A stretch of 64,000 nt of DNA from Vicinamibacterales bacterium (GCA_035764385.1 DASTZI010000221.1:482-64481), one strand, 5' to 3'. Counted from the first letter of the stretch, positions 29,566 through 63,512 are shown. Program-made: numbers and translations. The notes: generated from the sequence alone by a model not told the origin.

Positions 29566-30324
29566 TTACGCACGCACAGCGCCGTACGGTTCTTGTACAA
29601 CAGGCGGCAAGCTCACGGCGCCTTCCGCGAGCAGGCGCTCCGCGATCATCCAGTCGTGCGGATCGTTGATGTCGAACCCTTCGTACTTTTCCGTTATGAA
29701 CGGCATCAACACGTCACCTGCGATCGTTCGCTTCTCCAGTACGACGCGCGCCCACGCGAGCTCGAGCGAGGCATTCTGCACGTACACACGAGGCAAGGCC
29801 TGGTACGGCGTGCTGTGCCACGGCTGCGTGCGTGGCTCCGGCTGATCGAGCAGCGGCCGCATCCGGCTGCCCTCGATGACCCACATCTTGCCGGGGTGCT
29901 GTGCGCATAACTCCACCGCGCGCAGCGAATCAACTCCCGCTTCGGGCCCGAACAACTGCCATGCGCGACGAATCGTATCGGCCGTACGGAAGGGACTTGT
30001 CGGCCGCAGAAGCGAAAATGCGTCCCACTGCCGTCCGCGCCGGCCGAGCTCGCGCAGCGTATAGTCCACCCATTCGATATCAGGCGACGTGTCTGTCGCA
30101 AACGCGGCTGGCCGCAGAAACGGCACTTCGGCGCCGTAGTGTCGCGCGATGGCCGCCGTCTCTTCCGAATCGGTCGACACGATCACCGCGTCGAACACGC
30201 CACTCTGAATGGCCGGCGCAATCGTGTAGGCCAGCATCGGATGGCCGTTCAGCAGACGAATGTTCTTGCCAGGGACGCGCTTGGAACCTTGGCGAGCGGG
30301 AATCAGTGCAACGGCGGAAGGCAT
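29566..30324 (-). CDS. CMP-nonulosonic/ulosonic acid synthetase (acylneuraminate cytidylyltransferase family), paralogue 1
   Basis: VALIPARQGSKRVPGKNIRLLNGHPMLAYTI, LLRPTSPFR and YVQNASLE fit the CTP_transf_3 pattern. Confidence 0.9.
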   Translation of the reverse strand: MPSAVALIPARQGSKRVPGKNIRLLNGHPMLAYTIAPAIQSGVFDAVIVSTDSEETAAIARHYGAEVPFLRPAAFATDTSPDIEWVDYTLRELGRRGRQWDAFSLLRPTSPFRTADTIRRAWQLFGPEAGVDSLRAVELCAQHPGKMWVIEGSRMRPLLDQPEPRTQPWHSTPYQALPRVYVQNASLELAWARVVLEKRTIAGDVLMPFITEKYEGFDINDPHDWMIAERLLAEGAVSLPPVVQEPYGAVRA

Positions 30325-30354
30325 TCACATTCGGACGCGCCGCAAAAGCGCGCC

Positions 30355-31863
30355 CTACACCTGATTGGGATTGTGATTGATGTAAACCGTCTTCAAATCG
30401 GAGTAGACGTCCAACGCTTGCGTGCCGGCTTCACGCCACCCATTGCCTGACTGACGGAGGCCCCCAAATGGCATATGTGGCTCGCTGCCGTAGGTGCCGC
30501 CGTTGACCACGGCCACGCCGGCCTGAATGCGGCCGATGAAGGTCATCGCCCTGTGAATATTCTGCGTATGAATCGCCGCGGTAAGCCCGAACGGTGAATC
30601 ATTCGCCAACGCAATGGCTTCCTCGAAATCCCGAACGCGGTACAGACACGTAATGGGGCCGAAGAGCTCGCTGCGGGTGATCTCGTCATTCGGTCCGACG
30701 TGCTCGACGATGGTCGGCGAGACGAAATATCCATCGCCGTACGGAGATCCAGTCAACCGCGCGCCCCCCGTGAGGACGACTGCGCCCGTATCCTTCGCGC
30801 GCGCAACGGCTGCAAGCATGTTGCGCATCTGCTCTTCGTTGATGACCGGGCCGTAATCGTCCGTATCCGCCGTGCCGACCTTGAGCTTCCGCGTCGCCTC
30901 GACCAGCATCGTTTTGAACCGGTCGTAAACGCTGTCGAACACGATGATGCGGCTGCCGGCGGCGCAGCGCTGACCCGCATTGCTGAACGCGGACCCGAGC
31001 GTCCACGTCACCGCGTTGGCTAAATCCGCATCGTCACAGACGATCAACGGATTCTTGCCGCCGAGTTCGAGACAGACTTTTGCCAGCCTCCGCCCGGCGG
31101 TTTCGGCAATCCAACGGCCGACTTCGCACGAACCGGTGAAACTGACAATCGCCACGTCAGGATGCTCGACGAGCGGCGCACCCGCCTCTTCGCCGAACCC
31201 GTGCAGCGTCGTATAGACGCCGTCAGGCACTCCCGCTTCGCGCGCCAGCACGCCAAACGCCCAGGCGGAGAGCGGCGTATCTTCCGCCGCCTTGAGGATC
31301 GCTGCGTTGCCGCACAGCAGCGCGGGAAATGCCTTCCAGGCCACGTTGGCAATGGGCGTATTCGCGGCGATGATGAGCCCGGCCACACCGAGCGGCTGTC
31401 GTACGACCATCGCCGACTTGTTCGGCACCGCGCTGGTCGTCGTCTGGCCATAGAACCGGCGTCCCTCGCCGGCGACGAAGAAGCCCATCTCGATGGCGGC
31501 ATCGGTTTCGCCAAGCGCGTCTTTTCTGGACTTGCCCGTCTCCATCGCAACGAGCCTCGCGATCTCGTCGCGATGCTGGCGCATCAACAGCGCGATCTGC
31601 CTGAGGATGTCGCCGCGTCGAACGACGGTCATCGCTGCCCACGCGGGCTGCGCAGCTTTCGCTGTCTTCACCGCCAGATCGACATCGTCACGTGTGGATC
31701 GCGCAACTTCGCAAAGCGGTTGGCCCGTCGCCGGGTTCATCTTCGTGAATGACCGGCCAACATCGGCCGTCATGTCCACGTGACCGATCTGGTTCGGGAT
31801 TCGCGCTGGTATGACCGAGAGATCGCTGGCCGCCGGTGTCGTCGCTGAAAGATTCGCGTTCAT
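30355..31863 (-). CDS. NAD(P)-dependent aldehyde dehydrogenase
   Basis: Start at MNANLSATT (ATG 31863). Motifs FTGSCEVGRWI, the catalytic-Glu region CLELGGKNPLIV, and the Cys region NAGQRCAAGSRI. Confidence 0.9.
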   Translation of the reverse strand: MNANLSATTPAASDLSVIPARIPNQIGHVDMTADVGRSFTKMNPATGQPLCEVARSTRDDVDLAVKTAKAAQPAWAAMTVVRRGDILRQIALLMRQHRDEIARLVAMETGKSRKDALGETDAAIEMGFFVAGEGRRFYGQTTTSAVPNKSAMVVRQPLGVAGLIIAANTPIANVAWKAFPALLCGNAAILKAAEDTPLSAWAFGVLAREAGVPDGVYTTLHGFGEEAGAPLVEHPDVAIVSFTGSCEVGRWIAETAGRRLAKVCLELGGKNPLIVCDDADLANAVTWTLGSAFSNAGQRCAAGSRIIVFDSVYDRFKTMLVEATRKLKVGTADTDDYGPVINEEQMRNMLAAVARAKDTGAVVLTGGARLTGSPYGDGYFVSPTIVEHVGPNDEITRSELFGPITCLYRVRDFEEAIALANDSPFGLTAAIHTQNIHRAMTFIGRIQAGVAVVNGGTYGSEPHMPFGGLRQSGNGWREAGTQALDVYSDLKTVYINHNPNQV

Positions 31864-31873
31864 TGGCACGTCG

Positions 31874-32728
31874 TTACCAGGCTGTGAATCCGCCGTCGAC
31901 GCGCAGTTCGTGGCCGGTGACGTAGGAGGATGCCGACGAAGCGAGGAAGACGAGTGGACCCGTGAGGTCCTCAGGCTGCGCCATCCGACCAAGCGGCACG
32001 CGTGATCCGTATTTCTCCTTGAACGCCTCGTCCTGTCCACCAGCGACGCCACCCGGCGACAGCGTGTTGACGCGAACGCCGCGAGCGCCCCACAGCGTCG
32101 AAAAATACTTCGTCATGTTGACGACAGCCGCTTTCGACGCACCGTACGCAGGCGACTTCAAAAACGGGAGGTCGCCGGGCAGGTGATCGTAGAAGCGCTG
32201 ATCGGGCGACACGGATGCGTACAGCGATCCAATGTTGATGACCGAACCGCTGCCACGCTCAGCCATCTGAGAGCCGAACACCTGCGTCACCTGGAACGTC
32301 CCCATCAGGTTTACTTCAAGCATCCGGTGGAACTGGTCCATCGGCAGGTTTTCGATCCGTGACCGGGTACCCGCTGAATCCGGCGGTTGATCGACGCCCG
32401 CATTATTCACAAGGATGCTGACGGGACCCATGCGTTCGGCAACCACTGACGCGGCATTCACGATTGATTGCCGATTGGTGACGTCGCAGTCGAACCGTTG
32501 AACCTGGCCAGGCGTGCGCTCCTCGACTTTGCGGAATGCAGGAGAGGCGGAAGCGCCTGGCAGCTCGAGAGCCGCCACCTGCGCCCCCGCATCGATGAGC
32601 GCCTCGATCCAGATCGGCCCCAGTTTGCCGCACGCGCCGGTAACGACTGCGATCTGGCCGTCGAGACGAAACCGATCCCTGTGGGGTCCGCCTTCAGGCG
32701 GACCTGACGAGCGGGACGAGTCTGTCAC
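31874..32728 (-). CDS. Short-chain dehydrogenase/reductase (classical SDR)
   Basis: VVTGACGKLGPIW (TGxxxGxG-like), NNAG, and catalytic YGASKAAV. GTG start with a GTGA overlap. Confidence 0.9.
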   Translation of the reverse strand: MTDSSRSSGPPEGGPHRDRFRLDGQIAVVTGACGKLGPIWIEALIDAGAQVAALELPGASASPAFRKVEERTPGQVQRFDCDVTNRQSIVNAASVVAERMGPVSILVNNAGVDQPPDSAGTRSRIENLPMDQFHRMLEVNLMGTFQVTQVFGSQMAERGSGSVINIGSLYASVSPDQRFYDHLPGDLPFLKSPAYGASKAAVVNMTKYFSTLWGARGVRVNTLSPGGVAGGQDEAFKEKYGSRVPLGRMAQPEDLTGPLVFLASSASSYVTGHELRVDGGFTAW

Positions 32729-33789
32729 GAACGCGCGAACTCGACGTCCGGCTTGCTGAGCACCTCGAAGGTGAGGAAGTCGTCTTCCATCAGCGCCCGG
32801 AGCGTCACGCGACCGAGGACCTTGTCCAGCTCGTATGGCGGGATGCCGCCGCCAGGCGACTTCATGACGATGTCTCCAGGCCCGAGGATGTGTCCACTCG
32901 GCACATCGCGAGCGAGGACGAGGCTCTTGCCCATCTTGGTAATGGGCGCTTTTTCGCTGTCGTAGATCTTCTTGAAGCCGTTGCCGAGCGCCTTGTGCGT
33001 GCGCTCGAGGTCGCGAACCATCTTGCGCAAGCCAACAGGCTCCAGCGAGAACGCGTGATCGGTGCCCTTGCTGGCGCGGTTCAGGGTGAAGTGCTTCTCC
33101 ACGATTCGCGCGCCGAGCATGTAGGCCGCCACGGGCATGGCGATCCCGTTGTCATGGCTCGAAAAGCCGATGACGGCGCCGGGGAACCGCTCGCGGAAGG
33201 TGCTGATGACGCGCAGGTCGAGCTCCTCGAACGCCGCCGGATATCCCGCCGTGCACTGCAGAATGGCGAGCTGCGGGTTGATCGGCATGATCGTGTCGTA
33301 GGCGCGCTGCACGTCGTCGATGACCGCGCCGCCGGTGGAAATGACGACAGGTTTACCGAAGCTCGCGACGTGCCGCAACAGCGGCGTGCTTTTGAGATCG
33401 CCCGAGGCAATCTTGTACGCGGGGACGTCGAGATCACGCAGGAAGTCGGCGCTGGCCAGGTCGAATGCGGTGGAGAAGAAATCGACGCCGAGTTCCGCCG
33501 CGAACGTCTGCAGCTGACGGTACTCCTGCAGGCCGAACTCGAGGAATTCGCGGTGCTCACCGTAGGTTGAACCGAAGCTGTTCTCGTTGTCGTACGGCTT
33601 GTTGTAGGCAGCGCGAGTGTACAGCCCCCGGTTGTCGCGCTTCTGCAGCTTGACCGCGTGCGCGCCGGCGAGTTTCGCTTCGCGGAATAGCTCGCGCGCC
33701 TTATCGAGGTTGCCCTGGTGGTTGTGTCCGATTTCAGCGATGACATAGCACCTGGACTCGTCGCCGATCTCGTGCCGCCCGATTCTCAT
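32725..33789 (-). CDS. NeuB-family ulosonic-acid synthase, sugar-phosphate (animal NANS / Bacteroides Kdn-9-P synthase-like) type, with C-terminal SAF domain
   Basis: Start at MRIGRHEIG (ATG 33789). VIAEIGHNHQGNLDKARELFREAKLAGAHAVKLQK, FGSTYGEHREFLEF, LQCTAGYP, GFSSHDNGIAMPVAA and KGTDHAFSLEP parallel, from memory, human NANS (IIAEIGQNHQGDLDVAK..., WGKTYGEHKRHLEF, LQCTSAYP, GYSGHETGIAISVAA, KGSDHSASLEP). Confidence 0.85.
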   Translation of the reverse strand: MRIGRHEIGDESRCYVIAEIGHNHQGNLDKARELFREAKLAGAHAVKLQKRDNRGLYTRAAYNKPYDNENSFGSTYGEHREFLEFGLQEYRQLQTFAAELGVDFFSTAFDLASADFLRDLDVPAYKIASGDLKSTPLLRHVASFGKPVVISTGGAVIDDVQRAYDTIMPINPQLAILQCTAGYPAAFEELDLRVISTFRERFPGAVIGFSSHDNGIAMPVAAYMLGARIVEKHFTLNRASKGTDHAFSLEPVGLRKMVRDLERTHKALGNGFKKIYDSEKAPITKMGKSLVLARDVPSGHILGPGDIVMKSPGGGIPPYELDKVLGRVTLRALMEDDFLTFEVLSKPDVEFARS

Positions 33790-33811: not shown

Positions 33812-34807
33812 CTAGGCTTCAACGACCGGCCGCAGCTGCGCGACCAGCTGATCCCACCCGTAGTCGGCGTGCGCGATCTCCCGCGCGGCGCGACCAATCT
33901 TCTCTGCCTCGTCGTGGTCCGGAAGACGATCGCAGCGATTGATGTCGATGATGTTCTTCGCGTGCACGAGCCCCTGCGGCGAGTGCTGGTCAAGGTTGGT
34001 GATCACCGCGCAGCCGACTTCCATCGCCGCGTTCACCGTCGTGTTGTTCGCGCGCAGCCCTTTTTCGAAGAACGCCGCCAGGAATGTGCAGTCGACCAGA
34101 TGATTGAAGACTGCTGTGTCGGACAGATAGCCCATGAAGTACACGCGGCCGTTGAAGATGGACTGCAGCTCCTCGAAGCGGACGACAAAGGAATCGTCGA
34201 AACTGGTGTTCTCGTGCAGCGCCGTCGAGACGAACACTGAATACGTCTTGCCCGTCGCCTCGAGCAACTCGAGAAGCCTCCGGTAGAGCGGAACCCTGAT
34301 CTTGTGCGCCATCCCGAAGGTGAAGACCTTGATCTCCGTATCGTCGAATCGCTGGGGGTTCAGCAGGGTGCCCGGGCAGAACGCCTCGACAATATCGGGA
34401 CGCGCCGCCCGCAGCTGCTCGAACAGCTCACGATTGCCGCACGAGACGCGGGCAGCGGCAGCAAGCATCCGCTTCTCGAGTGCGGTGTTGTCGAATGCGT
34501 GCAGAAACAGTTCGAATTCGCCGACGTGCCGCTCGATCCAGGTGTCGAGCGCGAGGGCATCTTCGGCGGAAAATTCCGACATCTTCAGCGACAGCAGCGG
34601 CCGGCCGTAACGCGCCAGCTCCGGTGCGCCGATCCGGACAACTGGCAGGTCGAGCCGCCGCGCCAGGATCGCATTGAACTTGGCGATGCCGCACGTCCAC
34701 GGGTTCAGGTGATAACCGGCTATACAGTCGATCAAACGGACCTCAGGTGCTTCGAACTGTTTTGAGTGTGCGGGGAGTGCGCAGCCCAGCCGTTCGGACC
34801 CGCGCAA
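33812..34807 (-). CDS. Hypothetical protein, possible GT-B-type glycosyltransferase
   Basis: 331-aa ORF in the operon frame. The only hint of function is a GT1-like C-terminal pattern (VYFMGYLSD...FLAAFFEKGLRANNTTVNAAMEVGCAVITN). No firm family assignment. Confidence 0.6.
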   Translation of the reverse strand: MRGSERLGCALPAHSKQFEAPEVRLIDCIAGYHLNPWTCGIAKFNAILARRLDLPVVRIGAPELARYGRPLLSLKMSEFSAEDALALDTWIERHVGEFELFLHAFDNTALEKRMLAAAARVSCGNRELFEQLRAARPDIVEAFCPGTLLNPQRFDDTEIKVFTFGMAHKIRVPLYRRLLELLEATGKTYSVFVSTALHENTSFDDSFVVRFEELQSIFNGRVYFMGYLSDTAVFNHLVDCTFLAAFFEKGLRANNTTVNAAMEVGCAVITNLDQHSPQGLVHAKNIIDINRCDRLPDHDEAEKIGRAAREIAHADYGWDQLVAQLRPVVEA

Positions 34808-34816
34808 GTGGCCATT

Positions 34817-35749
34817 CTACTGCAGCTTGGCGGCTTCCCGCTGTCCCGCCATCGCCTCGATCAGATAGGGCGGACGTCGCCGCGTTTCCTCCAGCGCGCG
34901 CCACACGTACTCGCCGACGATTCCGAGGGCGACCAACTGGAACCCGGCGAGGCCGACAATCAACGACAGAACGAGCAGCAGACCTCCACCGAGCTCCGGC
35001 AACAGCGCGACGGCGAACAACAACAACACGAGGGACCCGACCAAGAACATCAACCCGATATAGGTGCAGAGCCGGATTGGAAAGCCCGAGAACGACGTCA
35101 TCGAATCGACGACAAGCTTGATTTTGCGCGCGAGCGTCCATCCGGATTGTCCTGACCGCCGCGGCTGTTTGTCGTACTCGACGCACTCCTGGCGGAAACC
35201 GAGCCACGTGATCAACGCAAGCACGCTGACGTTCCGCTCGGAAAAGCGCCGGAACGCATCGACCACCACGCGATCGACGAGAAAGAAGTCGGCGCCGCGA
35301 GCCGGCATCTCGGTCATTCCGACCAGGCGTCGCATCATCCAGTAATACAGCGCGGCGAATCCCCGGTGCGACGGATCACCGGGCCGGGCCCGCCGCGTTG
35401 CCCACACAACCTGCGCACCCTGACGCCACCGCGCGACCATCGAGGCGAGCGTCTCGGGGGGATCCTGCAGGTCGGCCGCCATCATCACGGCGGCGTCCGA
35501 GTCGACCTGATGAAGGCCGCACGTAATCGCGACGTGCGACCCCGAATTCCGCGAGAGTCGGAAGCCGCGTACACGCGCGTCGCGAAGCGCCAGGGCTTCG
35601 ATCACCGCGAACGTCTCGTCGCGCGAATGGTCGTCGACCACGATCCATTCCCAGTCGCTACCGACATCGCGCATCGCGGCCACGAGACGCTCGTAGAGCA
35701 CCGGCAGGTTAGTGGCTTCGTTGAACGCCGGCGTCACGATGGAGATCAT
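34817..35749 (-). CDS. GT2 polyprenyl-phosphate glycosyltransferase (ArnC/GtrB/DPM1-like) with two C-terminal TM helices
   Basis: ISIVTPAFNEATNLPVLYERL, IVVDDHSRDET, MMAADLQDPPE, then the C-terminal hydrophobic pair (LCTYIGLMFLVGSLVLLLFAVALL / LLLVLSLIVGLAGFQLVALGIVG). Confidence 0.9.
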   Translation of the reverse strand: MISIVTPAFNEATNLPVLYERLVAAMRDVGSDWEWIVVDDHSRDETFAVIEALALRDARVRGFRLSRNSGSHVAITCGLHQVDSDAAVMMAADLQDPPETLASMVARWRQGAQVVWATRRARPGDPSHRGFAALYYWMMRRLVGMTEMPARGADFFLVDRVVVDAFRRFSERNVSVLALITWLGFRQECVEYDKQPRRSGQSGWTLARKIKLVVDSMTSFSGFPIRLCTYIGLMFLVGSLVLLLFAVALLPELGGGLLLVLSLIVGLAGFQLVALGIVGEYVWRALEETRRRPPYLIEAMAGQREAAKLQ

Positions 35750-35753: not shown

Positions 35754-35781
35754 GATTTCGGATTTGTGATTTGTGATCTAG
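35754..35781. repeat. Heptad repeat gatttcg gatttgt gatttgt gatctag in an intercistronic gap
   Basis: Read directly. It includes the TAG stop (35778-35780) of the aminotransferase and ends 5 nt upstream (minus sense) of the ArnC-like start at 35749. Confidence 0.8.
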
Positions 35782-36953: not shown

Positions 36954-36956
36954 CGC

Positions 36957-36991
36957 CACTAATCACCACCCACTAACCACTAACCACTAAC
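36957..36991. repeat. Heptad repeat cactaat caccacc cactaac cactaac cactaac in an intercistronic gap
   Basis: Read directly (3 perfect copies at 36971-36991). It contains the TAG stop (36987-36989) of the upstream epimerase gene. Confidence 0.85.
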
Positions 36992-39217: not shown

Positions 39218-39234
39218 AGGGCCGTCGGTCGCCT

Positions 39235-40997: not shown

Positions 40998-41016
40998 CGA
41001 CAACAGGGTCGAGCGT

Positions 41017-42045: not shown

Positions 42046-42518
42046 CGCGTCTCCTGCGCCCGTCCGTGAAGGCGCGCGGGCACACCCGCCACGACGGCAT
42101 CGGCCGGGACATCGTGCGTGACCACGGCGCCGGCGCCGACCAGCGCCCGCTCACCAATCGTCACGCCGCACATGATCACGGCTCCGCTGCCGATGGACGC
42201 ACCTCGGCGCACGCGCGTCGGAACGACTTTCCAGTCCGCCTGCGTCTGCAGTACGCCCTCGTTGGTTGCGCGCGGATAGGGATCGTTGATGAACATCACG
42301 CCGTGACCGACGAAGACCTCGTCTTCAATGTCGACGCCTTCGCAGATGAAGGTGTGCGATGAAATCTTGCAGCGGGCGCCGATGGTCGCGTTTTTCTGAA
42401 TCTCGACGAACGCGCCGATCTTCGTCTCGTCGCCAACCTCACAGCCATACAGATTCACCAGATCTGGGTGGTGAATCACGACATTGCGACCAAGCCGGAC
42501 CGTTGGCGCGAGCGGCAT
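42042..42518 (-). CDS. Hexapeptide-repeat N-acetyltransferase (WbpD/WlbB-like)
   Basis: Start at MPLAPTVRLG (ATG 42518, ATGA overlap). VGDETKIGAFVEIQKNATIGARCKISSHTFICEGVDIEDEVFVGHGVMFIND, IGSGAVIMCGVTIGERALVGAGAVVTHDV. Confidence 0.85.
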   Translation of the reverse strand: MPLAPTVRLGRNVVIHHPDLVNLYGCEVGDETKIGAFVEIQKNATIGARCKISSHTFICEGVDIEDEVFVGHGVMFINDPYPRATNEGVLQTQADWKVVPTRVRRGASIGSGAVIMCGVTIGERALVGAGAVVTHDVPADAVVAGVPARLHGRAQETR

Positions 42519-48155: not shown

Positions 48156-48168
48156 GTGACTGCCGCCA

Positions 48169-57898: not shown

Positions 57899-58923
57899 CG
57901 GCTCTGTCTTCGCAGCCCCGTGCGATGCGTGAACATCAGGATTTCGTACACCACCTTGCGGGTCGCGCGGCGGCTCTTGCCGGCCAGCTTCCTGCCGCCA
58001 ACAAGCGTGTAGTAGACAGCGTGATGAAAGGCCTTCTTCACCAGCTTCTTCGCAAAGTGCACTTGATCGAGACCACGACCAACGCGCTTCGACGTTTCGG
58101 TCTTTCGGGTCGCGCGCCAGGTTGATGCAATGACATAGGTCGCAATCATCGAGACGTCGTATCCTTCGCGCCGCAGGAGCACGGCGTGCTGGAGCGACGG
58201 CGGCCAGTTGAATCGCGACGGCGGCGAACCGGCAAACAGCGAAACGCGCTGCCGGTCGACACTCGCGCCATCGGACTGCCGCCGGCTCCACAACGGCTCA
58301 GCGACCTGGCGGATCTCGCCTTGGTGCGACAGCTCCGCGACCAGGAGGCGGTCCGGATTGAGAACAGACCGGAAGATACCGGCCGCCTCGAGCGCGCGCA
58401 CGCGCATGAGGCCGTAGACCATGTCGCCGGATCCGAAGCCGCTCCAGCAGAAATGCCGCCACCGGTCGCGCGGATCGCCAATCCCTGATGTGTCGAACAT
58501 CCGCGGCTCTTTGTCGACGAGCGCGCCGCCCTCGTCGACACGAAGCGTCTGTGGATATACGAGCACCGCCTCCGGATGCGCGTCGAGCTCCGCGACCATG
58601 CGCGCCAGCCATTGCGGAGCCCATCGATCGTGATCGCTGACCCACGCGAAGTACTCGGCAGATGGATGCTCGCGGCGCGCAATCTGGACGACTTCCCGCC
58701 ACGTCGGCACCATCCCACGCCGTTCCGGATGACGCCAGTACCGAACTCGGCGATCTCGCGTTTCGAACTCGCGCGCGATGTGCTCGCTGTCCGTGTTCGT
58801 GCCATCGTCGAGCATGACGAGCGCGAAATCGCCATCGGTCTGGGCGAGAAGCGACTCGGTCGCTTCGCGGAGGTGCCCGGCGTTGTTGTACAAGGTCATG
58901 CCGAGCACAACGCGCGGCTTCAC
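57895..58923 (-). CDS. GT2-family glycosyltransferase
   Basis: VLGMTLYNNAGHLREATESLLAQTDGDFALVMLDDGTNTDS fits the GT-A fold with a DxD-type region. GTG start. Confidence 0.85.
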   Translation of the reverse strand: MKPRVVLGMTLYNNAGHLREATESLLAQTDGDFALVMLDDGTNTDSEHIAREFETRDRRVRYWRHPERRGMVPTWREVVQIARREHPSAEYFAWVSDHDRWAPQWLARMVAELDAHPEAVLVYPQTLRVDEGGALVDKEPRMFDTSGIGDPRDRWRHFCWSGFGSGDMVYGLMRVRALEAAGIFRSVLNPDRLLVAELSHQGEIRQVAEPLWSRRQSDGASVDRQRVSLFAGSPPSRFNWPPSLQHAVLLRREGYDVSMIATYVIASTWRATRKTETSKRVGRGLDQVHFAKKLVKKAFHHAVYYTLVGGRKLAGKSRRATRKVVYEILMFTHRTGLRRQSR

Positions 58924-58924: not shown

Positions 58925-60634
58925 TCAGTGATGGCCCACCTCGATCAACCGTTTGACGCTCGCCTTCAGACGCGCGACCTGCTTGCGGGCGCTGAGACCT
59001 CGACGCCACTTGCGCCATTCCTTGGCGGCCCGTTCCTGGCGTGTTGCACGGATGATCGCTTCGCGTTCACGGTGCTCGCGCTCGCGGTAAGCGGCCCTCG
59101 CGCCGAGTATCTGTTCCTTCTGTGCACGATTGGCGCGCTCGCTGTCGTCGCGCGCGATGTCTATGGCATCCATCAGCAGCCATCTCCCGATCGCCGTGTT
59201 CGACGCAGCAATCGCGGCTCTCAACATGAGCGGCGGGTCATCGAACGTGGGCTCAGGCTGCGCATGTCCTGCGGAGCGTCCGAGCCCCTCGACCGTCTCA
59301 ACAAACCTCGGCGTTGATGGCGACTCGAGACCGCCGGGCCTGACAAACGCGGTGAGAAAGCGTCGGTTGCGCGCCTCGCGCGATCCATCGCTCTTCATGA
59401 CCCCGGCGAGGTGCGACAGATGCGAGCCGACGTCGGGCGCGGTGTGCAGCAGCCCGCCTTCCACATTCAACAGATACCGGAAATGCACCATACCGTCCTG
59501 ATGCATCCGATACGCCGGCAGCTGCATCGTCAGGACCGGCCGTCCGATGATGGCAGCCTCGAGGAACACGGTCGTGCAGAGACCCACAACGGCGCGGCTG
59601 TAGTAGATCGAATCGAAGTAGTCCGCCTTCGCGTCTGCGTCGATCGGGTTGCGTCCGCCTATCGCTACATTCTCCAAACCGTCGAGAGAAATGCCCGTCC
59701 ATTCCTTGATCCGCTCGGGGTGCGGTCGTACGAGTACACCCGCAGTCCGAAGAACAGGATCGCTGCTGGATCGAAGCGCCTGGATCCATTCCTTGACGAA
59801 CACGGGCTCCGCCGGGTCTGGAACAGGGCTCATCGCCGAGCAGACGTAGAGGACGAATGGGCGCTCTGGATCGAGGCCCACGGCGCGACAAAACTGCTGC
59901 CGCGACCGCTCCGGGTGTTTGTCGAACCATTGGTCGTAGCACTGCGCGCCTGTCACGATGATGCGGGATGCCGGAATGCCGTGCATCTCGATGGCCTCGC
60001 GCTTCTGCACGTCATTCCAGACAATCGTCACGTCCGGTTGGATGTGCACCAGCGCCTTGCTCGACAGGTGGTCCCAGCTCATGATGCAGGCGGCGGTTGG
60101 AACACCAAGCGACCGCGCGGCCTTCATCTGCTCCATCGCAAACGAGCGCGAGAAGGTCAGCGATGTCAGCAGCACAACGTCCGGCTGCTGAGCCTCGAGT
60201 AACCTGGTGATCGCACGGCTCGGCGGCAGTCTTCGCTCGATGGCCTTGAGCCACGCGGCCGTCCTGCGGTGGCCAACGACCGCCCCTCCAACACCCGATG
60301 TGATCCACTTGATGACGCGGGGTGTGCGTTCGATGTTGCGAAGGCGGAGCTTTTCAGCCGACGCATAGCGTGAATCGAGAAAGCGCACGTAGTCGAGCGC
60401 AAAACGCAGCTTCTGGGCGAGGTGGAACCATGGCTCGTCCACCGGCGACGGCGTCAGTCCGAAGCTGACGTTGGGATATTCGGCGGCAAGTCGCTCGACA
60501 AACGCCTGGCCGCCGAAGGTTTCCCGCTCGTCGGCGAGCAGGTGGACGTCATGCCCTCGCCCGGCGAGCGAACGGATGACAGACTCGAAGTTGCGATAGT
60601 TCGCAAAGTGCAGCGCCGTTAAGAGAACCTTCAT
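58925..60634 (-). CDS. Family B uncharacterised putative GT-B transferase, paralogue B3, with basic coiled C-terminal tail
   Basis: Start at MKVLLTALHFANYRN (ATG 60634). MSWDHLSSKALVHIQPDVTIVWND, VLVRPHPERIKEW, YYSRAVVGLCTTVFLEAAIIGRPV, DGMVHFRYLLNVEGGLL. Tail REREHREREAIIRATRQERAAKEWRKWRR. Confidence 0.85.
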   Translation of the reverse strand: MKVLLTALHFANYRNFESVIRSLAGRGHDVHLLADERETFGGQAFVERLAAEYPNVSFGLTPSPVDEPWFHLAQKLRFALDYVRFLDSRYASAEKLRLRNIERTPRVIKWITSGVGGAVVGHRRTAAWLKAIERRLPPSRAITRLLEAQQPDVVLLTSLTFSRSFAMEQMKAARSLGVPTAACIMSWDHLSSKALVHIQPDVTIVWNDVQKREAIEMHGIPASRIIVTGAQCYDQWFDKHPERSRQQFCRAVGLDPERPFVLYVCSAMSPVPDPAEPVFVKEWIQALRSSSDPVLRTAGVLVRPHPERIKEWTGISLDGLENVAIGGRNPIDADAKADYFDSIYYSRAVVGLCTTVFLEAAIIGRPVLTMQLPAYRMHQDGMVHFRYLLNVEGGLLHTAPDVGSHLSHLAGVMKSDGSREARNRRFLTAFVRPGGLESPSTPRFVETVEGLGRSAGHAQPEPTFDDPPLMLRAAIAASNTAIGRWLLMDAIDIARDDSERANRAQKEQILGARAAYREREHREREAIIRATRQERAAKEWRKWRRGLSARKQVARLKASVKRLIEVGHH

Positions 60635-60659
60635 CGATGACCCGCTCGGCGACGTTCCC

Positions 60660-61670
60660 TCAGGGCGCCCGGCGCGCGACAACGCGCAGGTTCTTACCGT
60701 AACAACCGGCGTTGGCGAGGAACTGGACGACATCGGCAATTTCCGTCAGCGCCTGCGCATCGCGATGGAGTACCTCGCGGCGGTACCAGATGTAATCCTC
60801 GATGTCGAGACCTTCGGTGACGATCAGCTCCGGCGTCAACGAATGCCGCAGCATCAGATCGCGCATTGTCGTCGGCGTGTAGTAATTGAGATGGTGCGTC
60901 GGCCAGATGAAGTGCGCGTTGGCGCCCATCAGCAGCCGCGACGCCGAGTCGAAGTTTGGCACATAGAGAAACAGAATGCCGTCGGGCGCGAGCAGATCCA
61001 CGCAGGCCCGCAGCGTGCGTCCTGGATCGAGGAGGTGCTCGAGCACGTCGAACAACGACACTGCGTCGAAGGTGCCTGCGGCAAGACCCGCGTCCTCGAG
61101 CCCGACCGTCCGCAGGTCGAGCCCGCGCGACCGTCCGAATTCGATCGCCGAGGGGTTCAGATCGATCCCAGTCGCCTTCCAGCCGTTGGCCTGAGCGGCC
61201 TCGACGACAAAGCCCGTGCTGCAGCCGACATCGAGGTACCTTGGCGCACGGCCGTTCGCCATCCGCAAATGCTCGCCCATGATGCGCACACGCTCCGCAC
61301 CGAAGCGCTTCACGCGGTAGTCATGACTGTTGATCCCGAGGTCCCGGACGATGTCCTGGTATGCCTGTGAGGCGTAGACCTGCTGGTAGTGTGCCTGGTC
61401 GAAGGTCGGATTGACGAAGACGAGATCGCACTCCCTGCAGCGGACGATCCGCATGTGATCTTTTTCGAGTTCGAGCGTCTCCTCCACACTGCCGCACGTG
61501 GGGCACGCCCGGCGTGACAGCAACTCCTGCGGAATGTGGCCAAAGCGCCTGACGAGCTCGTCGATCGGGTGGGTCCGCTTGTCGATCAGGCTCTTATACG
61601 ACGCGCCTGGCCGCAGCTGGTTCACGTCCACCGGCTGGTATTCAGAGACGCGTCTATACGGAATCTGCAT
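60660..61670 (-). CDS. SAM-dependent methyltransferase with N-terminal Cys4 zinc-ribbon, paralogue 2
   Basis: CPTCGS...CRECDLVFVNP, then YLDVGCSTGFVVEAA, VSLFDVLEHL. It has the same architecture as 49557..50483. Confidence 0.85.
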   Translation of the reverse strand: MQIPYRRVSEYQPVDVNQLRPGASYKSLIDKRTHPIDELVRRFGHIPQELLSRRACPTCGSVEETLELEKDHMRIVRCRECDLVFVNPTFDQAHYQQVYASQAYQDIVRDLGINSHDYRVKRFGAERVRIMGEHLRMANGRAPRYLDVGCSTGFVVEAAQANGWKATGIDLNPSAIEFGRSRGLDLRTVGLEDAGLAAGTFDAVSLFDVLEHLLDPGRTLRACVDLLAPDGILFLYVPNFDSASRLLMGANAHFIWPTHHLNYYTPTTMRDLMLRHSLTPELIVTEGLDIEDYIWYRREVLHRDAQALTEIADVVQFLANAGCYGKNLRVVARRAP

Positions 61671-62358
61671 TCGAACGCGCAGCGACGACCGACTCGGCGA
61701 GTCGTAAATCCCACGGTGTGTCGATGTCGAGCGACTCTTCCGGCGTCATGATCAGCGGCCACGTCTCGTCGCCGTACAGCGAACCCTGTTCGATGACACG
61801 CGCATGAACCGCCAGCACGGCCGGACCATTACGCGCGTAGAGACGAGGTTTGTCCTGTCGCCGCGTCGGCCCGGAACCTTCGAGGAATGGCTTGAGAACT
61901 CCTTCGTCGAGCCGCATCACCGATGTCGGGTTGAACTGATGCGGTAATTCCACAACCGAGACGACTGAGTCGCCGCGCACGCGCTGCAGCCAGTCGATGG
62001 CTGCGTCGATGTGCTGCCCGCGGCGCAGCGGTGACGTCGGCTGAAGCAGGACGACCATATCGGCGTCGAAACCGGCTTCACGCATTGCGCGAATGGCATG
62101 CTGCAGGACGGGCAGCATGGGAGCGTCGTCTGCGGCGAGCGACGCGGGTCGCATGAACGGCACTTCGAGCCCGAGCAACCTCGCGCAGTCAGCCACGCGA
62201 GCGTCGTCGGTGCTCACGATCGTGCGGGTCAGCTTCTTGCTTTCTTTGACTGCATCCGCGGTGTAGGCAAGCAACGGGCGTCCACAGAGTGGCGCCAGGT
62301 TCTTCATCCCAATGCCTTTGGACCCACCGCGGGCGGGGATGACCCCGAGAACGTTCAT
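61654..62358 (-). CDS. CMP-nonulosonic acid synthetase (acylneuraminate cytidylyltransferase family), paralogue 3
   Basis: Start at MNVLGVIPARGGSKGIGMKNLAPLCGRPLLAYT (ATG 62358, sharing 1 nt with the upstream TAA). LLQPTSPLRR. Confidence 0.9.
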   Translation of the reverse strand: MNVLGVIPARGGSKGIGMKNLAPLCGRPLLAYTADAVKESKKLTRTIVSTDDARVADCARLLGLEVPFMRPASLAADDAPMLPVLQHAIRAMREAGFDADMVVLLQPTSPLRRGQHIDAAIDWLQRVRGDSVVSVVELPHQFNPTSVMRLDEGVLKPFLEGSGPTRRQDKPRLYARNGPAVLAVHARVIEQGSLYGDETWPLIMTPEESLDIDTPWDLRLAESVVAARSNADSV

Positions 62359-63512
62359 TAATAGGACAAACGCTTCTGGATGCGCAGCGGCGTGTCGACG
62401 AGGATCTTCGCGATGCGTGCGCCCGCGCCGCCGTCGCCATACAGATGGCTCGACGGGTATCGGCCACGGGCAAGCTGCTTCTTGACCGCAGCGGCAATCT
62501 CCCGCCGGTCGTATCCGACGTCGCTCACGTTGTCCGCCCGATCCCGACCCTGCTGCCGGCTGCCGATATTGACGGTTGGAACACCGATGTACGCACCTTC
62601 GCGTACCGGCGCGGACGAATTCCCGACGGCGCACGCGCAGCTCAACATCAATTTGACGTAGGTCTCGATCGGGAAATTCTTGTAAAAGCGGATGTACTCA
62701 GGGCGATAGTGCTCCCTGAATTTCCGCATGCCGCGCGAGATGTCCTCGGACCCGGCGTCGGCATTGGGCCACAGCATGATCGTCGGCATCTGCAACTCGT
62801 GCAGCGCCATCAATGTCTCGACGATCTGGTCTTCGCCATGACCGTATTCGGTCGTAACCGGATGCTGACTGACGAGCAGGAAGGGTTTGTCGAGCGTGAT
62901 GTGCGCGCCGACGCCCTCGCGATCAAGCCAGTCAGGCGAGCCGAGGTGTCCATTGGCCCTCGCCATCTCGGCGACCAGGTCGATGCGCGGACACCCGACG
63001 ACATGAACAGTAGCTGGATCCTCCCCCATGCGGACAATGCGCTCGGCCGCGGCGGCATTCGCGGGGAAGTGCAGGTGCGACAGCTTCGTCACCGCGTGGC
63101 GGATGCTCTCGTCGATGGTGCCGCTGATTTCTCCGCCCATCGTGTGCGCCAGCGGAATGTTCATATAGGCCGCGGCAACCGCCGTCGCCATGGTCTCGAA
63201 ACGATCGCCGACGCTGACCACAACATCGGGCTTCAGCATGCCGAAGATTGTCGGCAGCTCGAGCAACCCCAGGCCGGTCGACTTCGCCATCGTGCCCGGT
63301 GTTTCTCCTTCGACGATCATCGTCACCTTTGCATCGGGGTGAAATCCGTCGGCTTCGATGACGTCCACAACCGAGCCGAAGCGATCCAGCAACGCCGATG
63401 CTCCGACGACAAGTTGCAGCTTCAAACCGGGCGTTGCCCGCACCGCGCACATGACCGACTTGATGCTGCTGTAGTTCGCGCGGGAGCCGACGACGATGCA
63501 GATCTTCCTCAT
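62358..63512 (-). CDS. UDP-N-acetylhexosamine 2-epimerase, hydrolysing (NeuC-type), paralogue 2
   Basis: MRKICIVVGSRANYSSI, DRFETMATAVAAAYMNIPLAHTMGGEISGTIDESIRHAVTKLSHLH, GNSSAPVREGAYIGVPTVNIGSRQ. Confidence 0.9.
   Translation of the reverse strand: MRKICIVVGSRANYSSIKSVMCAVRATPGLKLQLVVGASALLDRFGSVVDVIEADGFHPDAKVTMIVEGETPGTMAKSTGLGLLELPTIFGMLKPDVVVSVGDRFETMATAVAAAYMNIPLAHTMGGEISGTIDESIRHAVTKLSHLHFPANAAAAERIVRMGEDPATVHVVGCPRIDLVAEMARANGHLGSPDWLDREGVGAHITLDKPFLLVSQHPVTTEYGHGEDQIVETLMALHELQMPTIMLWPNADAGSEDISRGMRKFREHYRPEYIRFYKNFPIETYVKLMLSCACAVGNSSAPVREGAYIGVPTVNIGSRQQGRDRADNVSDVGYDRREIAAAVKKQLARGRYPSSHLYGDGGAGARIAKILVDTPLRIQKRLSY

What the first reader, a model, noticed from the sequence alone, without database searches (positions are those of the whole stretch)
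29566..63512. Redundant nonulosonic-acid toolkit: 3 CMP-synthetases, 2 NeuB synthases of different types, 2 hydrolysing NeuC epimerases
The CTP_transf_3 cytidylyltransferases lie at 29566-30324, 47014-47712 and 61654-62358. The NeuB-family synthases lie at 32725-33789 (sugar-phosphate type) and 51642-52679 (bacterial type). The NeuC-type 2-epimerases lie at 50483-51640 and 62358-63512. A typical sialic, legionaminic or pseudaminic acid locus has one of each. Three activating enzymes imply up to three distinct CMP-ulosonic acids, or derivatives of one, feeding the many transferases. NeuC2 and NeuA3 have no adjacent NeuB of their own.
Basis: partly seen in the sequence, partly recalled or inferred. 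Interest (0 to 1): 0.65.

Follow-up and report, generated by a model that had tools for sequence, protein, structure and literature searches.

The report
Three ulosonic-acid modules in one locus
A soil acidobacterium (Vicinamibacterales) carries one giant surface-sugar gene island holding three separately conserved gene sets for sialic-acid-like sugars; the "extra" copies are not spares, and one set belongs to an undescribed cassette found in many bacterial phyla.

Summary
All seven genes sit at the stated coordinates, are intact and are under purifying selection (dN/dS 0.07-0.2). The contig is from a Vicinamibacterales MAG.

The genes are not redundant copies. They fall into three separately conserved modules.
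- M1 (26.8-33.8 kb): NeuB1-SDR-ALDH-NeuA1-transketolase-like-HAD. NeuB1 carries the eukaryote-type markers E134D and loss of R314. This cassette is syntenic in at least 10 phyla or orders, never with a NeuC nearby. A phosphatase accompanies it in many loci, of different HAD subfamilies in different lineages.
- M2 (42.5-52.7 kb): NeuB2-NeuC1-MT-NeuA2 plus an epimerase and a second methyltransferase. This is a complete sialic-type pathway.
- M3 (60.7-63.5 kb): NeuC2-NeuA3-MT. It has no NeuB of its own in about 40 related contigs, so it probably borrows NeuB2.

Both NeuCs resemble the human GNE epimerase domain more than a bacterial LegG. The many transferases include two unannotated paralogous families: X (GT-B fold, 5 copies) and Y (4 copies).

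Multi-paralogue NulO loci are already known, for example in Leptospira. The SDR/ALDH/transketolase cassette and the NeuB-less module appear undescribed. No product chemistry can be established from sequence.

The parts
63509..64000 (-). 3' part of a Y-family (GT4-like) gene that runs off the window end
   Evidence: The reading frame is open to the window edge. The orthologue in L085 is 529 aa. Similar to the Y domains of u641 and u885.
62358..63512 (-). NeuC2, hydrolysing UDP-GlcNAc 2-epimerase family (module 3)
   Evidence: TIGR03568 380 bits against cut-off 235.9. Best solved relative is the human GNE epimerase domain 4zht at 1e-73, against LegG 5xvs at 3e-56. dN/dS 0.10-0.20.
61654..62358 (-). 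NeuA3, CMP-ulosonate synthetase (module 3)
   Evidence: CTP_transf_3. Best PDB matches are V. cholerae and N. meningitidis CMP-NeuAc synthetases. The P-loop, QPTSPLR, R165 and DID motifs are kept. Its start shares a base with the NeuC2 stop.
60660..61670 (-). SAM methyltransferase MT3 (module 3)
   Evidence: Methyltransf_23/11/12. Syntenic with NeuC2-NeuA3 in about 40 contigs.
58925..60739 (-). Y-family putative glycosyltransferase
   Evidence: Weak Glyco_transf_4 match, 6e-5. 46% identical to the Y domains of u641 and u885.
57895..58923 (-). GT2 glycosyltransferase
   Evidence: Glycos_transf_2, 8e-20.
56366..58291 (-). Y-family protein (u641)
   Evidence: No Pfam family. Paralogue of 58925-60739 and of the N-terminal half of u885.
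53712..56369 (-). Y-X fusion protein (u885)
   Evidence: Residues 1-449 match family Y and residues 549-870 match family X.
52676..53824 (-). X-family putative GT-B glycosyltransferase (u382)
   Evidence: Paralogue of u347, u405 and u525.
51642..52679 (-). NeuB2, bacterial-type NulO synthase (module 2, probably shared with module 3)
   Evidence: NeuB+SAF. Best PDB match is N. meningitidis NeuB, 2e-43. E134 is kept, R314 is K, and the PEP/metal residues are kept.
50483..51640 (-). NeuC1, hydrolysing 2-epimerase family (module 2)
   Evidence: TIGR03568 365 bits. GNE 4zht 2e-65 against LegG 1e-48. The D/E/D motif DRYE...GGEVTGSIDE aligns with GNE.
49557..50723 (-). SAM methyltransferase MT2 (module 2)
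   Evidence: Methyltransf_23. Syntenic NeuC1-MT2-NeuA2 in L004, L026, L027, L040, L041 and L124.
48169..49560 (-). Protein with about 8 hydrophobic segments (u463), candidate polymerase, ligase or flippase
   Evidence: No Pfam family. 8 hydrophobic windows. Recurs paired with the Ank gene upstream of NeuC2 in relatives.
47709..48212 (-). Ankyrin-repeat protein
   Evidence: Ank, 3e-6.
47014..47712 (-). NeuA2, CMP-ulosonate synthetase (module 2)
   Evidence: CTP_transf_3. PDB 6ifd 3e-29 and 1eyr 3e-28. NeuA-like pocket with Q104 and R165.
45974..47017 (-). X-family GT-B protein (u347)
   Evidence: No Pfam or PDB sequence match. 1878 homologues; the 120 listed are unnamed or 'hypothetical'. AlphaFold model pLDDT 89.7. 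Nearest folds are GT9 heptosyltransferases TibC, WaaC and WaaF, with TM about 0.4.
44772..45989 (-). X-family protein (u405)
43632..44768 (-). SDR-type epimerase/dehydratase conserved with module 2 (Epi378)
   Evidence: Epimerase / GDP_Man_Dehyd in two stretches. 66-87% identical and syntenic in relatives.
42518..43693 (-). SAM methyltransferase MT1
   Evidence: synteny.
39900..42572 (-). Hexapeptide acetyltransferase, GFO/IDH/MocA oxidoreductase and DegT aminotransferase (a WbpD/WbpB/WbpE-like trio)
   Evidence: Pfam. The functional assignment rests on established knowledge of the Wbp pathway and was not tested.
35778..40170 (-). PglD-like acetyltransferase, an X-family protein (u525), a LegB-like 4,6-dehydratase and a DegT aminotransferase. 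This is a variable block that could make a 2,4-diamino-2,4,6-trideoxyhexose.
   Evidence: Pfam. TIGR04180 LegB 215 bits (cut-off 475). PseC 306 and LegC 245 bits, both below cut-off.
33812..35749 (-). GT2 glycosyltransferase plus the unknown protein u331, conserved upstream of NeuB1 in Vicinamibacterales
32725..33789 (-). NeuB1, eukaryote-like (sugar-phosphate type) ulosonate synthase (module 1)
   Evidence: NeuB+SAF. E134D and R314S are conserved in 82 and 81 of 84 orthologues; the markers come from PMC8208679. 65-91% identical across phyla.
31874..32728 (-). Short-chain dehydrogenase that follows NeuB1 in nearly every locus long enough to show it (1 of 84 differs)
   Evidence: adh_short_C2. 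The best NCBIfam models include mannonate oxidoreductase, gluconate-5-DH and KduD, all below cut-off. NNAG and YxxxK are present. Synteny.
30355..31866 (-). Aldehyde dehydrogenase (module 1)
   Evidence: Aldedh, 1e-154. Nearest model is 2,5-dioxovalerate / alpha-ketoglutarate-semialdehyde DH, below cut-off. Catalytic ELGGKN and GQRC are present.
29566..30324 (-). NeuA1, CMP-ulosonate synthetase with a divergent sugar pocket (module 1)
   Evidence: CTP_transf_3. Q104R, R165Y and D211N are conserved in the orthologue group. dN/dS 0.08.
27539..29503 (-). Transketolase-like ThDP enzyme (module 1)
   Evidence: All three TK domains are present. NF004559 393 bits, below the 488 cut-off. ThDP and catalytic residues are kept, but the H461...GEDGP(D469) motif is replaced by G...LPGGPG in all phyla.
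26841..27542 (-). HAD-IA phosphatase (module 1)
   Evidence: HAD_2. DxDGT motif. In many other lineages a KdsC-like HAD lies next to NeuB1 instead.
25072..26844 (-). Unknown 590-aa soluble protein (u624) that travels with the cassette in several phyla; candidate transferase
   Evidence: Synteny. 3737 homologues, none of those listed with a Pfam domain. Faint Capsule_synth match, E 0.095. The model is too poor to use, pLDDT 58.
23282..25069 (-). Polyprenyl-phosphate sugar-phosphate transferase (GT4/MraY-WecA type) fused to CoA_binding_3
   Evidence: Conserved downstream of the cassette in Vicinamibacterales.

Best explanation
The seven genes are working parts of three distinct ulosonic-acid modules in one co-directional glycan-assembly island of a Vicinamibacterales bacterium.

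Module 1 (inferred mechanism):
- NeuB1 is a eukaryote-like synthase. It condenses PEP with a phosphorylated aldose taken from central metabolism.
- The HAD phosphatase removes the phosphate.
- The SDR, and where present the transketolase-like enzyme and the aldehyde dehydrogenase, remodel the product oxidatively.
- NeuA1, which has its own sugar pocket, activates the product with CMP.

Module 2 (inferred from family membership): NeuC1 releases a ManNAc-type sugar from a UDP-sugar. NeuB2 condenses it with PEP. NeuA2 activates it. The methyltransferases and an SDR-type epimerase decorate it.

Module 3 (inferred): NeuC2, NeuA3 and MT3 make a second derivative and rely on NeuB2 for the condensation step.

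The CMP-sugars are then used by GT2 enzymes and by two unannotated paralogous transferase-like families (X and Y), on a lipid carrier primed by the WecA-like enzyme.

Shown: gene identity, integrity, selection, synteny and marker residues. Inferred: every substrate and product.
For: - Domain identity.
- Source organism and high conservation of NeuB1.
- Module 1 order NeuB1-SDR-ALDH-NeuA1-TK(-HAD-u624) holds in about 40 Acidobacteriota MAGs. It also holds in Gemmatimonadales, Nitrospirota, Desulfobacterales and other 'delta' MAGs, Chloroflexi, Gaiellaceae, Pyrinomonadaceae, Burkholderiales, Sedimenticola and Syntrophobacterales. NeuB1 is 65-70% identical there, and no NeuC lies within 10 kb.
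- A phosphatase lies next to NeuB1 or after the TK in many of these loci, but it comes from two different HAD subfamilies. This argues for a phosphorylated intermediate.
- NeuB1 has E134D and R314S. NeuB2 has E134 and K314. PEP and metal ligands are intact in both (with markers from PMC8208679).
- NeuA1 has a pocket signature distinct from NeuA2 and NeuA3.
- Module 2 synteny is seen in L004, L026, L027, L040, L041 and L124.
- Module 3 order NeuC2-NeuA3-MT3-Y-GT2-Y-YX-X appears in about 40 contigs without its own NeuB. In L124, NeuC2-MT3 abuts NeuB2-NeuC1-MT2-NeuA2.
- dN/dS is 0.07-0.20 for nine of the eleven genes tested; NeuA2 and the TK had no usable orthologue pair.
- Catalytic motifs of the ALDH, SDR, HAD and TK are intact.
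- Family X has a GT-B fold.
Against: - No chemistry is available. None of the NeuA or NeuB paralogues reaches an NCBIfam equivalog cut-off, so no product can be named.
- Both NeuCs look GNE-like, so two different UDP-sugar substrates are not demonstrated. Modules 2 and 3 could differ only in late decoration.
- Sharing of NeuB2 by module 3 rests on absence of evidence within 10-kb flanks.
- The cassette composition varies: ALDH without TK, TK without ALDH, or neither. The three accessory enzymes therefore need not act in one fixed sequence.
- In Streptomyces the NeuB-SDR-TK core sits in a secondary-metabolite-like context with no CMP-synthetase detected by similarity to the window's genes. The core is therefore not intrinsically a glycan module.
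Confidence: 0.6

Rival explanations
1. Classic legionaminic-acid reading. The LegB-like dehydratase, DegT and PglD-like acetyltransferase (35.8-40.2 kb) make UDP-diNAcBac. One NeuC paralogue is LegG, NeuB2 is LegI and one NeuA is LegF. The other NeuC/NeuA pair makes Neu5Ac.
For: - A LegB-like dehydratase (best NCBIfam model TIGR04180), a DegT with PseC/LegC similarity and a hexapeptide acetyltransferase are present.
- Two NeuCs and two NeuAs around one NeuB would fit a promiscuous synthase.
Against: - All Leg-specific models score far below cut-off: 215 against 475, and 245 against 420.
- Both NeuCs score higher against human GNE than against the solved LegG. Both have the GNE-type GGEV(S/T)G(S/T)IDE motif, not the LegG-type GGEITEGAYDE.
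- In relatives, module 2 (L026, L040, L041) and module 3 (about 40 contigs) occur without the LegB-like block within 10 kb.
Confidence: 0.2
2. True redundancy or dosage. The paralogues make the same CMP-sialic acid, and the duplicates only raise flux or are differentially regulated.
For: - NeuC1/NeuC2 and NeuA2/NeuA3 are each about 50% identical, with the same family signatures.
Against: - 50% identity maintained under purifying selection, with each copy in its own conserved gene neighbourhood and with its own methyltransferase (MT2 and MT3 only 30% identical), is not the pattern of recent dosage duplicates.
- NeuA1/NeuB1 are only 31-39% identical to the others and have a different phyletic distribution.
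Confidence: 0.1
3. Module 1 simply makes Kdn (or Neu5Ac) through the 9-phosphate route, as in animals and Bacteroides. The SDR, ALDH and transketolase-like genes are unrelated neighbours.
For: - A sugar-phosphate-type synthase, a phosphatase and a CMP-synthetase form a complete Kdn-type pathway (established knowledge of NANS/NANP/CMAS and of the B. thetaiotaomicron Kdn genes).
- Some relatives have only NeuB1-SDR-NeuA1.
Against: - The SDR follows NeuB1 in nearly every locus long enough to show it, in all phyla and in Streptomyces.
- ALDH and TK lie between or beside the core genes, with 44-68% identity across phyla.
- The TK has a family-wide altered substrate motif.
- NeuA1 has a non-NeuA pocket.
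Confidence: 0.1

Closest known systems
Leptospira interrogans NulO biosynthetic cluster (PMC3438082)
   Same: [quoted passage not shown] It includes a synthase linked to a phosphatase, taken as an animal-like 9-phosphate route.
   Different: In the window the phosphatase is a separate gene. The sugar-phosphate-type synthase is tied to an SDR, an ALDH and a transketolase-like enzyme. One NeuC-NeuA-MT set has no synthase. The host is an environmental acidobacterium.
Animal sialic acid pathway (GNE, NANS, NANP, CMAS) and the Bacteroides thetaiotaomicron Kdn-9-P synthase/phosphatase pathway (own knowledge)
   Same: Both NeuCs are closest to the human GNE epimerase domain among solved structures. 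NeuB1 shares the E134D change and the loss of R314 with eukaryotic NanS. The synthase is linked to a HAD phosphatase.
   Different: No ManNAc kinase was found in the island. The HAD is not NANP-like by sequence; its best PDB match is 2hcf, of unknown function. Extra oxidative and ThDP enzymes are present. Phylogenetic grouping with NanS was not tested.
Campylobacter jejuni three NeuB paralogues for Neu5Ac, Leg and Pse (own knowledge)
   Same: Several NeuB/NeuA paralogues in one genome serve different NulOs.
   Different: In C. jejuni they lie in separate loci (LOS and flagellar glycosylation), each with a full pathway. No Pse-type genes (PseB, PseG, PseH) were recognised here.
Specialised C2-cleaving transketolases such as apulose-4-phosphate transketolase AptAB
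   Same: The window's TK-like protein is 30-34% identical to split 'transketolase family' proteins, including annotated AptA/AptB. It keeps all ThDP and catalytic residues.
   Different: It is a single polypeptide. It lacks the H...GEDGP motif. It is linked to a NeuB-type synthase rather than to a catabolic operon.
GT9 heptosyltransferases (WaaC, WaaF, TibC)
   Same: They are the nearest folds to the family X model, a GT-B two-Rossmann architecture. Three members give faint Pfam GT9 hits.
   Different: TM-scores are only about 0.4-0.45 and identity is 11-13%. There is no significant sequence match to any Pfam or PDB family. The donor sugar is unknown.

Membership tests
NeuC/NnaA hydrolysing UDP-GlcNAc 2-epimerase (TIGR03568) | Score above the curated equivalog cut-off | tested here: met
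   NeuC1 365 bits and NeuC2 380 bits against cut-off 235.9. The non-hydrolysing WecB model gives only 55-68 bits.
NeuC/NnaA hydrolysing UDP-GlcNAc 2-epimerase (TIGR03568) | Catalytic acidic triad (GNE D112/E134/D143 equivalents; own knowledge of residue roles) | tested here: met
   NeuC1 DRYE...GGEVTGSIDE aligns with GNE DRFD...GGEVSGTIDD. NeuC2 has DRFE...GGEISGTIDE (sequence).
NeuC/NnaA hydrolysing UDP-GlcNAc 2-epimerase (TIGR03568) | Substrate is UDP-GlcNAc rather than UDP-diNAcBac | tested here: inconclusive
   Both score higher against GNE than against LegG. No specificity-determining residues were validated.
N-acetylneuraminate synthase NeuB (TIGR03569 equivalog) | Score above the curated cut-off | tested here: not met
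   NeuB1 288 and NeuB2 293 bits against 399.65. PseI 228 and 216 against 340.
NeuB-family NulO synthase (PF03102 + SAF) | TIM-barrel NeuB domain plus C-terminal SAF domain, with PEP and metal ligands E25, K53, K129, S132, S154, H215, E234 and H236 | tested here: met
   Pfam. All listed residues are conserved in both proteins.
Eukaryote-type NanS (sugar-6-phosphate-using synthase) | E134D and loss of R314 (markers described in PMC8208679) | tested here: met
   NeuB1 has D and S, conserved in 82/84 and 81/84 orthologues. NeuB2 has E and K. The paper notes that E134D also occurs in 29% of environmental bacterial NeuB, so the marker is not exclusive.
Eukaryote-type NanS (sugar-6-phosphate-using synthase) | Obligatory partner phosphatase | tested here: met
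   HAD-IA in the cassette here and in Gemmatimonadales and Nitrospirota. A KdsC-like HAD lies next to NeuB1 in delta, Chloroflexi, Pyrinomonadaceae and Burkholderiales loci.
Eukaryote-type NanS (sugar-6-phosphate-using synthase) | Groups with eukaryotic NanS in a phylogeny; uses ManNAc-6-P or Man-6-P | not tested
   No eukaryotic NanS sequence was obtainable with the tools. A search with the SAF domain alone gave only chance hits.
CMP-NulO synthetase (CTP_transf_3: NeuA / LegF / PseF) | Pfam domain above the gathering score, with the CTP-binding PARxGSKxxxKN loop and the PTSP motif | tested here: met
   (all three paralogues).
CMP-NulO synthetase (CTP_transf_3: NeuA / LegF / PseF) | PseF equivalog cut-off (TIGR03584) or KdsB cut-offs | tested here: not met
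   135, 151 and 141 bits against 205.7. KdsB models give at most 54 bits against at least 155.
CMP-NulO synthetase (CTP_transf_3: NeuA / LegF / PseF) | NeuA-type sugar pocket (Q104, R165, D209/D211; residue roles from own knowledge of N. meningitidis CNS) | tested here: inconclusive
   NeuA3 keeps all of them. NeuA2 keeps Q104, R165 and D211. NeuA1 has R, Y and D/N.
Legionaminic acid pathway (LegB / LegC / LegH / LegG / LegI / LegF) | LegB and LegC models above cut-off | tested here: not met
   TIGR04180 215 against 475. TIGR04181 245 against 420.
Transketolase | ThDP-binding and catalytic residues (E. coli H26, H66, H100, D155, N185, H261, E411, H473) | tested here: met
Transketolase | Curated model cut-off, and the sugar-phosphate channel motif H461...GEDGP(D469) | tested here: not met
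   NF004559 393 bits against 488. H461 is G/C and D469 is G/S/A in every cassette TK examined. Positions R358, S385 and R520 are too poorly aligned to call.

The most novel reading that the evidence does not exclude
The cross-phylum cassette NeuB1-(HAD)-SDR-ALDH-NeuA1-TK encodes an undescribed route to a CMP-activated ulosonic acid with a remodelled side chain. The proposed steps are:
1. A C9 2-keto-3-deoxy acid is made through its phosphate ester.
2. The SDR, which resembles KduD and gluconate-5-DH, oxidises the penultimate hydroxyl to a ketol.
3. The transketolase-like enzyme removes the terminal C2 unit, leaving an aldehyde.
4. The ALDH, which resembles 2,5-dioxovalerate DH, oxidises the aldehyde to a second carboxylate. 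The product is a heptulosaric-type diacid, a relative of plant Dha, whose biosynthesis and nucleotide form are still unknown (PMC12168206).

In the Streptomyces version a class-III aminotransferase would take the aldehyde instead.
Probability: 0.2. Interest if true: 0.8.

Novelty: new variant of a known kind. Interest (0 to 1): 0.55.

Why it matters
Vicinamibacteria are abundant soil bacteria whose surface chemistry is essentially unknown. I found no paper in the searchable library linking Acidobacteria to nonulosonic acids in any substantive way.

The locus predicts a glycan carrying two or three different sialic-acid-like sugars. It also points to several things that can now be tested:
- a synthase-SDR(-ALDH-TK) cassette shared by many uncultured phyla and by one cultured Streptomyces, which gives an experimental handle;
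- a conserved NeuC-NeuA-methyltransferase unit that works without its own synthase;
- two large unannotated transferase-like families.

If the cassette makes a chain-shortened diacid, it would be the first defined route to an ulosaric acid.

Tried and rejected
- Exact-sequence look-up of NeuC2 found nothing.
- A PDB search with the NeuB1 SAF domain alone, meant to test likeness to the human NANS AFP domain, gave only chance T4-lysozyme hits.
- The HAD is not NANP-like by sequence; its best match is 2hcf, of unknown function.
- Family X gave no Pfam or PDB sequence hit even with a profile. Only the fold search helped.
- The u624 structure model was poor (pLDDT 58), and its fold matches were a meaningless mix of cyclodipeptide synthases, TyrRS and GT-B proteins. 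Only a faint Capsule_synth hit remains.
- My first claim, that all five phosphate- or acceptor-binding residues of transketolase are lost, was cut back after I inspected the local alignment. Only H461 and D469 are securely aligned.
- The idea that TK and ALDH are obligatorily coupled was weakened by cassette variants.
- Literature searches for transketolase together with NulO or sialic acid synthase clusters found nothing relevant.
- The teichulosonic acid search gave no gene-level comparison.

Full report
**Observation.** The window is 63% G+C. From about 20 kb to its end, almost every gene lies on the minus strand, often with overlapping stop and start codons.
- Three CTP_transf_3 cytidylyltransferases, two NeuB+SAF synthases and two Epimerase_2 proteins are found.
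- Both epimerases pass the curated cut-off of the hydrolysing NeuC/NnaA model. None of the synthases or cytidylyltransferases reaches any equivalog cut-off (NeuB, PseI, PseF, KdsB), so the family is certain and the specificity is open.
- The paralogues are old: 31-51% identical.
- NeuB1 is identical to an NCBI protein from a Vicinamibacterales (Acidobacteriota) MAG contig of 64,958 bp.

**Gene map.** Pfam and NCBIfam scans of every long minus-strand ORF show one large glycan island.
- It holds a WecA/MraY-type initiating transferase fused to CoA_binding_3, plus GT1 and GT2 enzymes.
- It holds GDP-mannose dehydratase, an RmlD-like reductase and a UDP-sugar dehydrogenase.
- It holds a WbpB/E/D-like trio and a LegB-like dehydratase with DegT and hexapeptide acetyltransferases.
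- It holds several methyltransferases and ABC-transporter components.
- Nine long ORFs had no Pfam family. All-against-all BLAST sorts six of them into two paralogous families. Family X is about 310 aa and occurs five times (u347, u382, u405, and the C-terminal parts of u525 and u885). Family Y is about 450 aa and occurs in 58925-60739, in u641, in the N-terminal part of u885 and in a gene cut by the window end.
- Family X has 1878 database homologues; the 120 listed are unnamed or 'hypothetical'. It gives no profile hit to Pfam or PDB.
- A confident AlphaFold model of u347 (pLDDT 89.7) has a GT-B fold, weakly nearest to GT9 heptosyltransferases.

**Three modules, not redundancy.** Context in relatives is the main evidence. 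I scanned species-representative genomes with NeuB1 and metagenomes with NeuC2, then mapped all window proteins onto the 160 loci by tblastn.
- Module 1: u331-NeuB1-SDR-ALDH-NeuA1-TK-HAD-u624-initiating transferase is collinear in about 40 Acidobacteriota MAGs.
- The core NeuB1-SDR-ALDH-NeuA1-TK recurs in the same order in Gemmatimonadales, Nitrospirota, Desulfobacterales and other 'delta' MAGs, Anaerolineales/Chloroflexi, Gaiellaceae, Pyrinomonadaceae, Burkholderiales, Sedimenticola and Syntrophobacterales. Conservation there is unusually high: NeuB1 65-70%, ALDH 60-68%, NeuA1 61-67% and TK 44-59% identical. No NeuC lies within 10 kb.
- Module 2: NeuB2-NeuC1-MT2-NeuA2-X-(X)-Epi378-MT1 is collinear in several Vicinamibacterales loci (L026, L040, L041; partly in L004, L027 and L124).
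- Module 3: NeuC2-NeuA3-MT3-Y-GT2-Y-YX-X is collinear in about 40 soil contigs, never with a NeuB of its own. In L124, NeuC2-MT3 directly precedes NeuB2-NeuC1-MT2-NeuA2. This makes NeuB2 the obvious shared synthase.
- dN/dS against orthologues is 0.07-0.20 for six of the seven paralogues, the SDR and the ALDH. NeuA2 and the TK had no gapless orthologue in the usable identity range. No paralogue tested shows signs of decay.

**Typing the paralogues: synthases.** A large phylogenetic study reports two differences between eukaryotic NanS and N. meningitidis NeuB. E134 becomes D, and the essential R314 is lost. E134D also occurs in 29% of environmental bacterial NeuB (PMC8208679).
- I used the N. 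meningitidis sequence printed as reference. NeuB1 has D134 and S314, conserved in 82 and 81 of 84 orthologues across phyla.
- NeuB2 keeps E134 and has K314.
- All PEP and metal ligands are intact in both.
- The cassette carries a phosphatase in many loci, but of different kinds. It is HAD-IA after the TK here and in Gemmatimonadales and Nitrospirota. It is a KdsC-like HAD beside NeuB1 in delta, Chloroflexi, Pyrinomonadaceae, Burkholderiales and cyanobacterial loci.
- This non-orthologous replacement is good indirect evidence that NeuB1 releases a phosphorylated product.

**Typing the paralogues: epimerases and cytidylyltransferases.**
- Among solved structures, both NeuCs are closer to the human GNE epimerase domain (252 and 224 bits) than to the A. 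baumannii UDP-diNAcBac hydrolysing epimerase (194 and 170 bits). Both share the GNE-type acidic motif.
- All three NeuAs keep the CTP loop and the PTSP motif.
- NeuA2 and NeuA3 keep NeuA-like Q104 and R165.
- The NeuA1 group consistently has R104, Y165 and N211, which implies a different sugar. The residue roles are from my own knowledge of the meningococcal enzyme.

**The accessory enzymes of module 1.**
- The SDR's better NCBIfam matches include mannonate oxidoreductase, gluconate 5-dehydrogenase and KduD. These enzymes oxidise the penultimate hydroxyl of sugar acids.
- The ALDH's best matches are 2,5-dioxovalerate / alpha-ketoglutarate-semialdehyde dehydrogenases.
- All of these matches are below cut-off and only marginally ahead of generic family members.
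- Catalytic motifs are intact in the ALDH, SDR, HAD and TK.
- I aligned the transketolase-like protein with E. coli TktA, fetched. It keeps every ThDP and catalytic residue.
- However, the well-anchored substrate-channel motif H461...GEDGP(D469)TH is replaced by G/C...(L/I)P(G/S/A)GPGHSH in every cassette TK examined.
- Positions 358, 385 and 520 are not reliably aligned, so I do not use them.
- Its nearest annotated relatives (30-34% identical) are split 'transketolase family' proteins, including apulose-4-phosphate transketolase.

**Cassette variants and a cultured example.**
- The cassette is not rigid. NeuB1-SDR is nearly invariant, but there are loci with ALDH and no TK (L059, L083), with TK and no ALDH (L056), and with neither (L047, L064, L078).
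- One cultured organism has the core. Streptomyces sp. NBC_01237 carries NeuB (54%), SDR (52%) and TK (47%) in a row on a 1.6-Mb replicon. They are followed by an RraA-like aldolase, an RmlD-like reductase, a HAD_2 hydrolase and a class-III aminotransferase. They sit next to hydroxyphenylglycine-type genes, and no cytidylyltransferase was detected by similarity.

**Mechanism.**
- The best-supported account has three modules. Module 1 makes a modified ulosonic acid through a phosphorylated intermediate, independent of NeuC. Module 2 is a complete NeuC/NeuB/NeuA pathway with methylation and epimerisation. Module 3 makes a second derivative using NeuB2.
- The shown facts are identity, integrity, selection, synteny and marker residues. 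All substrates and products are inferred.
- The most novel reading is a chain-shortening sequence: SDR to ketol, TK-like C2 removal to aldehyde, then ALDH to acid. This would give a CMP-heptulosaric-type diacid.
- In favour: 8-keto-Kdn or 8-keto-Neu has the D-threo C7/C6 configuration that transketolase donors need (my derivation). In the Streptomyces variant an aldehyde-accepting class-III aminotransferase stands in place of the ALDH.
- Against: the cassette variants, the sub-threshold family matches and the total lack of chemistry. I put this reading at about 0.2.
- The biosynthesis and nucleotide form of the only well-known ulosaric sugar, plant Dha, are still undefined (PMC12168206).

**Comparison and novelty.**
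- Several NulO synthases and CMP-synthetases in one cluster, interpreted as several NulOs, and a synthase-phosphatase linkage read as an animal-like route, are both published for Leptospira interrogans (PMC3438082). The headline 'redundant toolkit' is therefore a new member of a known kind.
- Three things seem undescribed: the cross-phylum NeuB-SDR(-ALDH-NeuA-TK) cassette, the conserved synthase-less NeuC-NeuA-MT unit, and families X and Y. No relevant paper was found.
- I therefore rate the whole as a new variant of a known kind, of moderate interest.

Noticed in passing
window 45974-47017, 44772-45989, 52676-53824, 37991-39238, 53712-54734: There are five paralogous copies of an unannotated protein family of about 310 aa (X). 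It has the invariant motifs GPWxGExGxELLYWxPF, SRGG, LHPS and NLxxQ, has 1878 database homologues (those listed are unnamed or 'hypothetical'), and is predicted to have a GT-B fold.
   Followed up: partly
window 58925-60739, 56366-58291, 55020-56369, 63509-64000: A second unannotated paralogous family (Y, about 450 aa) shows only a faint GT4 N-domain match. One copy is fused to an X domain (u885). One copy is cut by the window end (529 aa in L085).
   Followed up: partly
window 47709-49560: An ankyrin-repeat protein lies next to a protein with about 8 hydrophobic segments and no Pfam family. The pair recurs upstream of NeuC2 in relatives (L126, L128, L131, L138, L141, L142).
   Followed up: no
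window 23282-25069: An MraY/WecA-type polyprenyl-phosphate transferase carries a C-terminal CoA_binding_3 domain, which (from my own knowledge) is more usual at the N-terminus of WbaP/PglC-type or CapD-type proteins.
   Followed up: no
window 2091-4688: A fusion protein combines AMP-binding, a phosphopantetheine site and an acyltransferase (Aas-like). It lies upstream of the glycan island, near a DEAD-box helicase and ABC_tran_2 genes.
   Followed up: no
window 13762-14541 and 19176-20276 (+ strand): thiG and a ThiO-like FAD oxidoreductase are interspersed, on the opposite strand, among the polysaccharide genes.
   Followed up: no
L069 1-9730 (uncultured delta proteobacterium): In this locus the NeuB1 cassette is preceded by an acyl-AMP ligase, an alpha-oxoamine-synthase-type aminotransferase, an MsbA-like ABC exporter and a KdsC-like HAD. 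This hints at a glycolipid rather than a polysaccharide context.
   Followed up: no
L166 (Streptomyces sp. NBC_01237, NZ_CP108509.1 813691-830719): A NeuB-SDR-TK core is followed by an RraA-like aldolase, an RmlD-like reductase, a HAD and a class-III aminotransferase. It sits beside HmaS/Hmo/HpgT-like genes, so it is probably part of a secondary-metabolite cluster that makes an unusual building block.
   Followed up: partly
L001/L002 11901-12812; L003/L004, between the SDR and the ALDH: Relatives carry an extra gene between the SDR and the ALDH that is absent from the window: a formyltransferase in L001/L002, or an unknown 346-aa protein in L003/L004. The cassette therefore has a variable decoration slot.
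   Followed up: no
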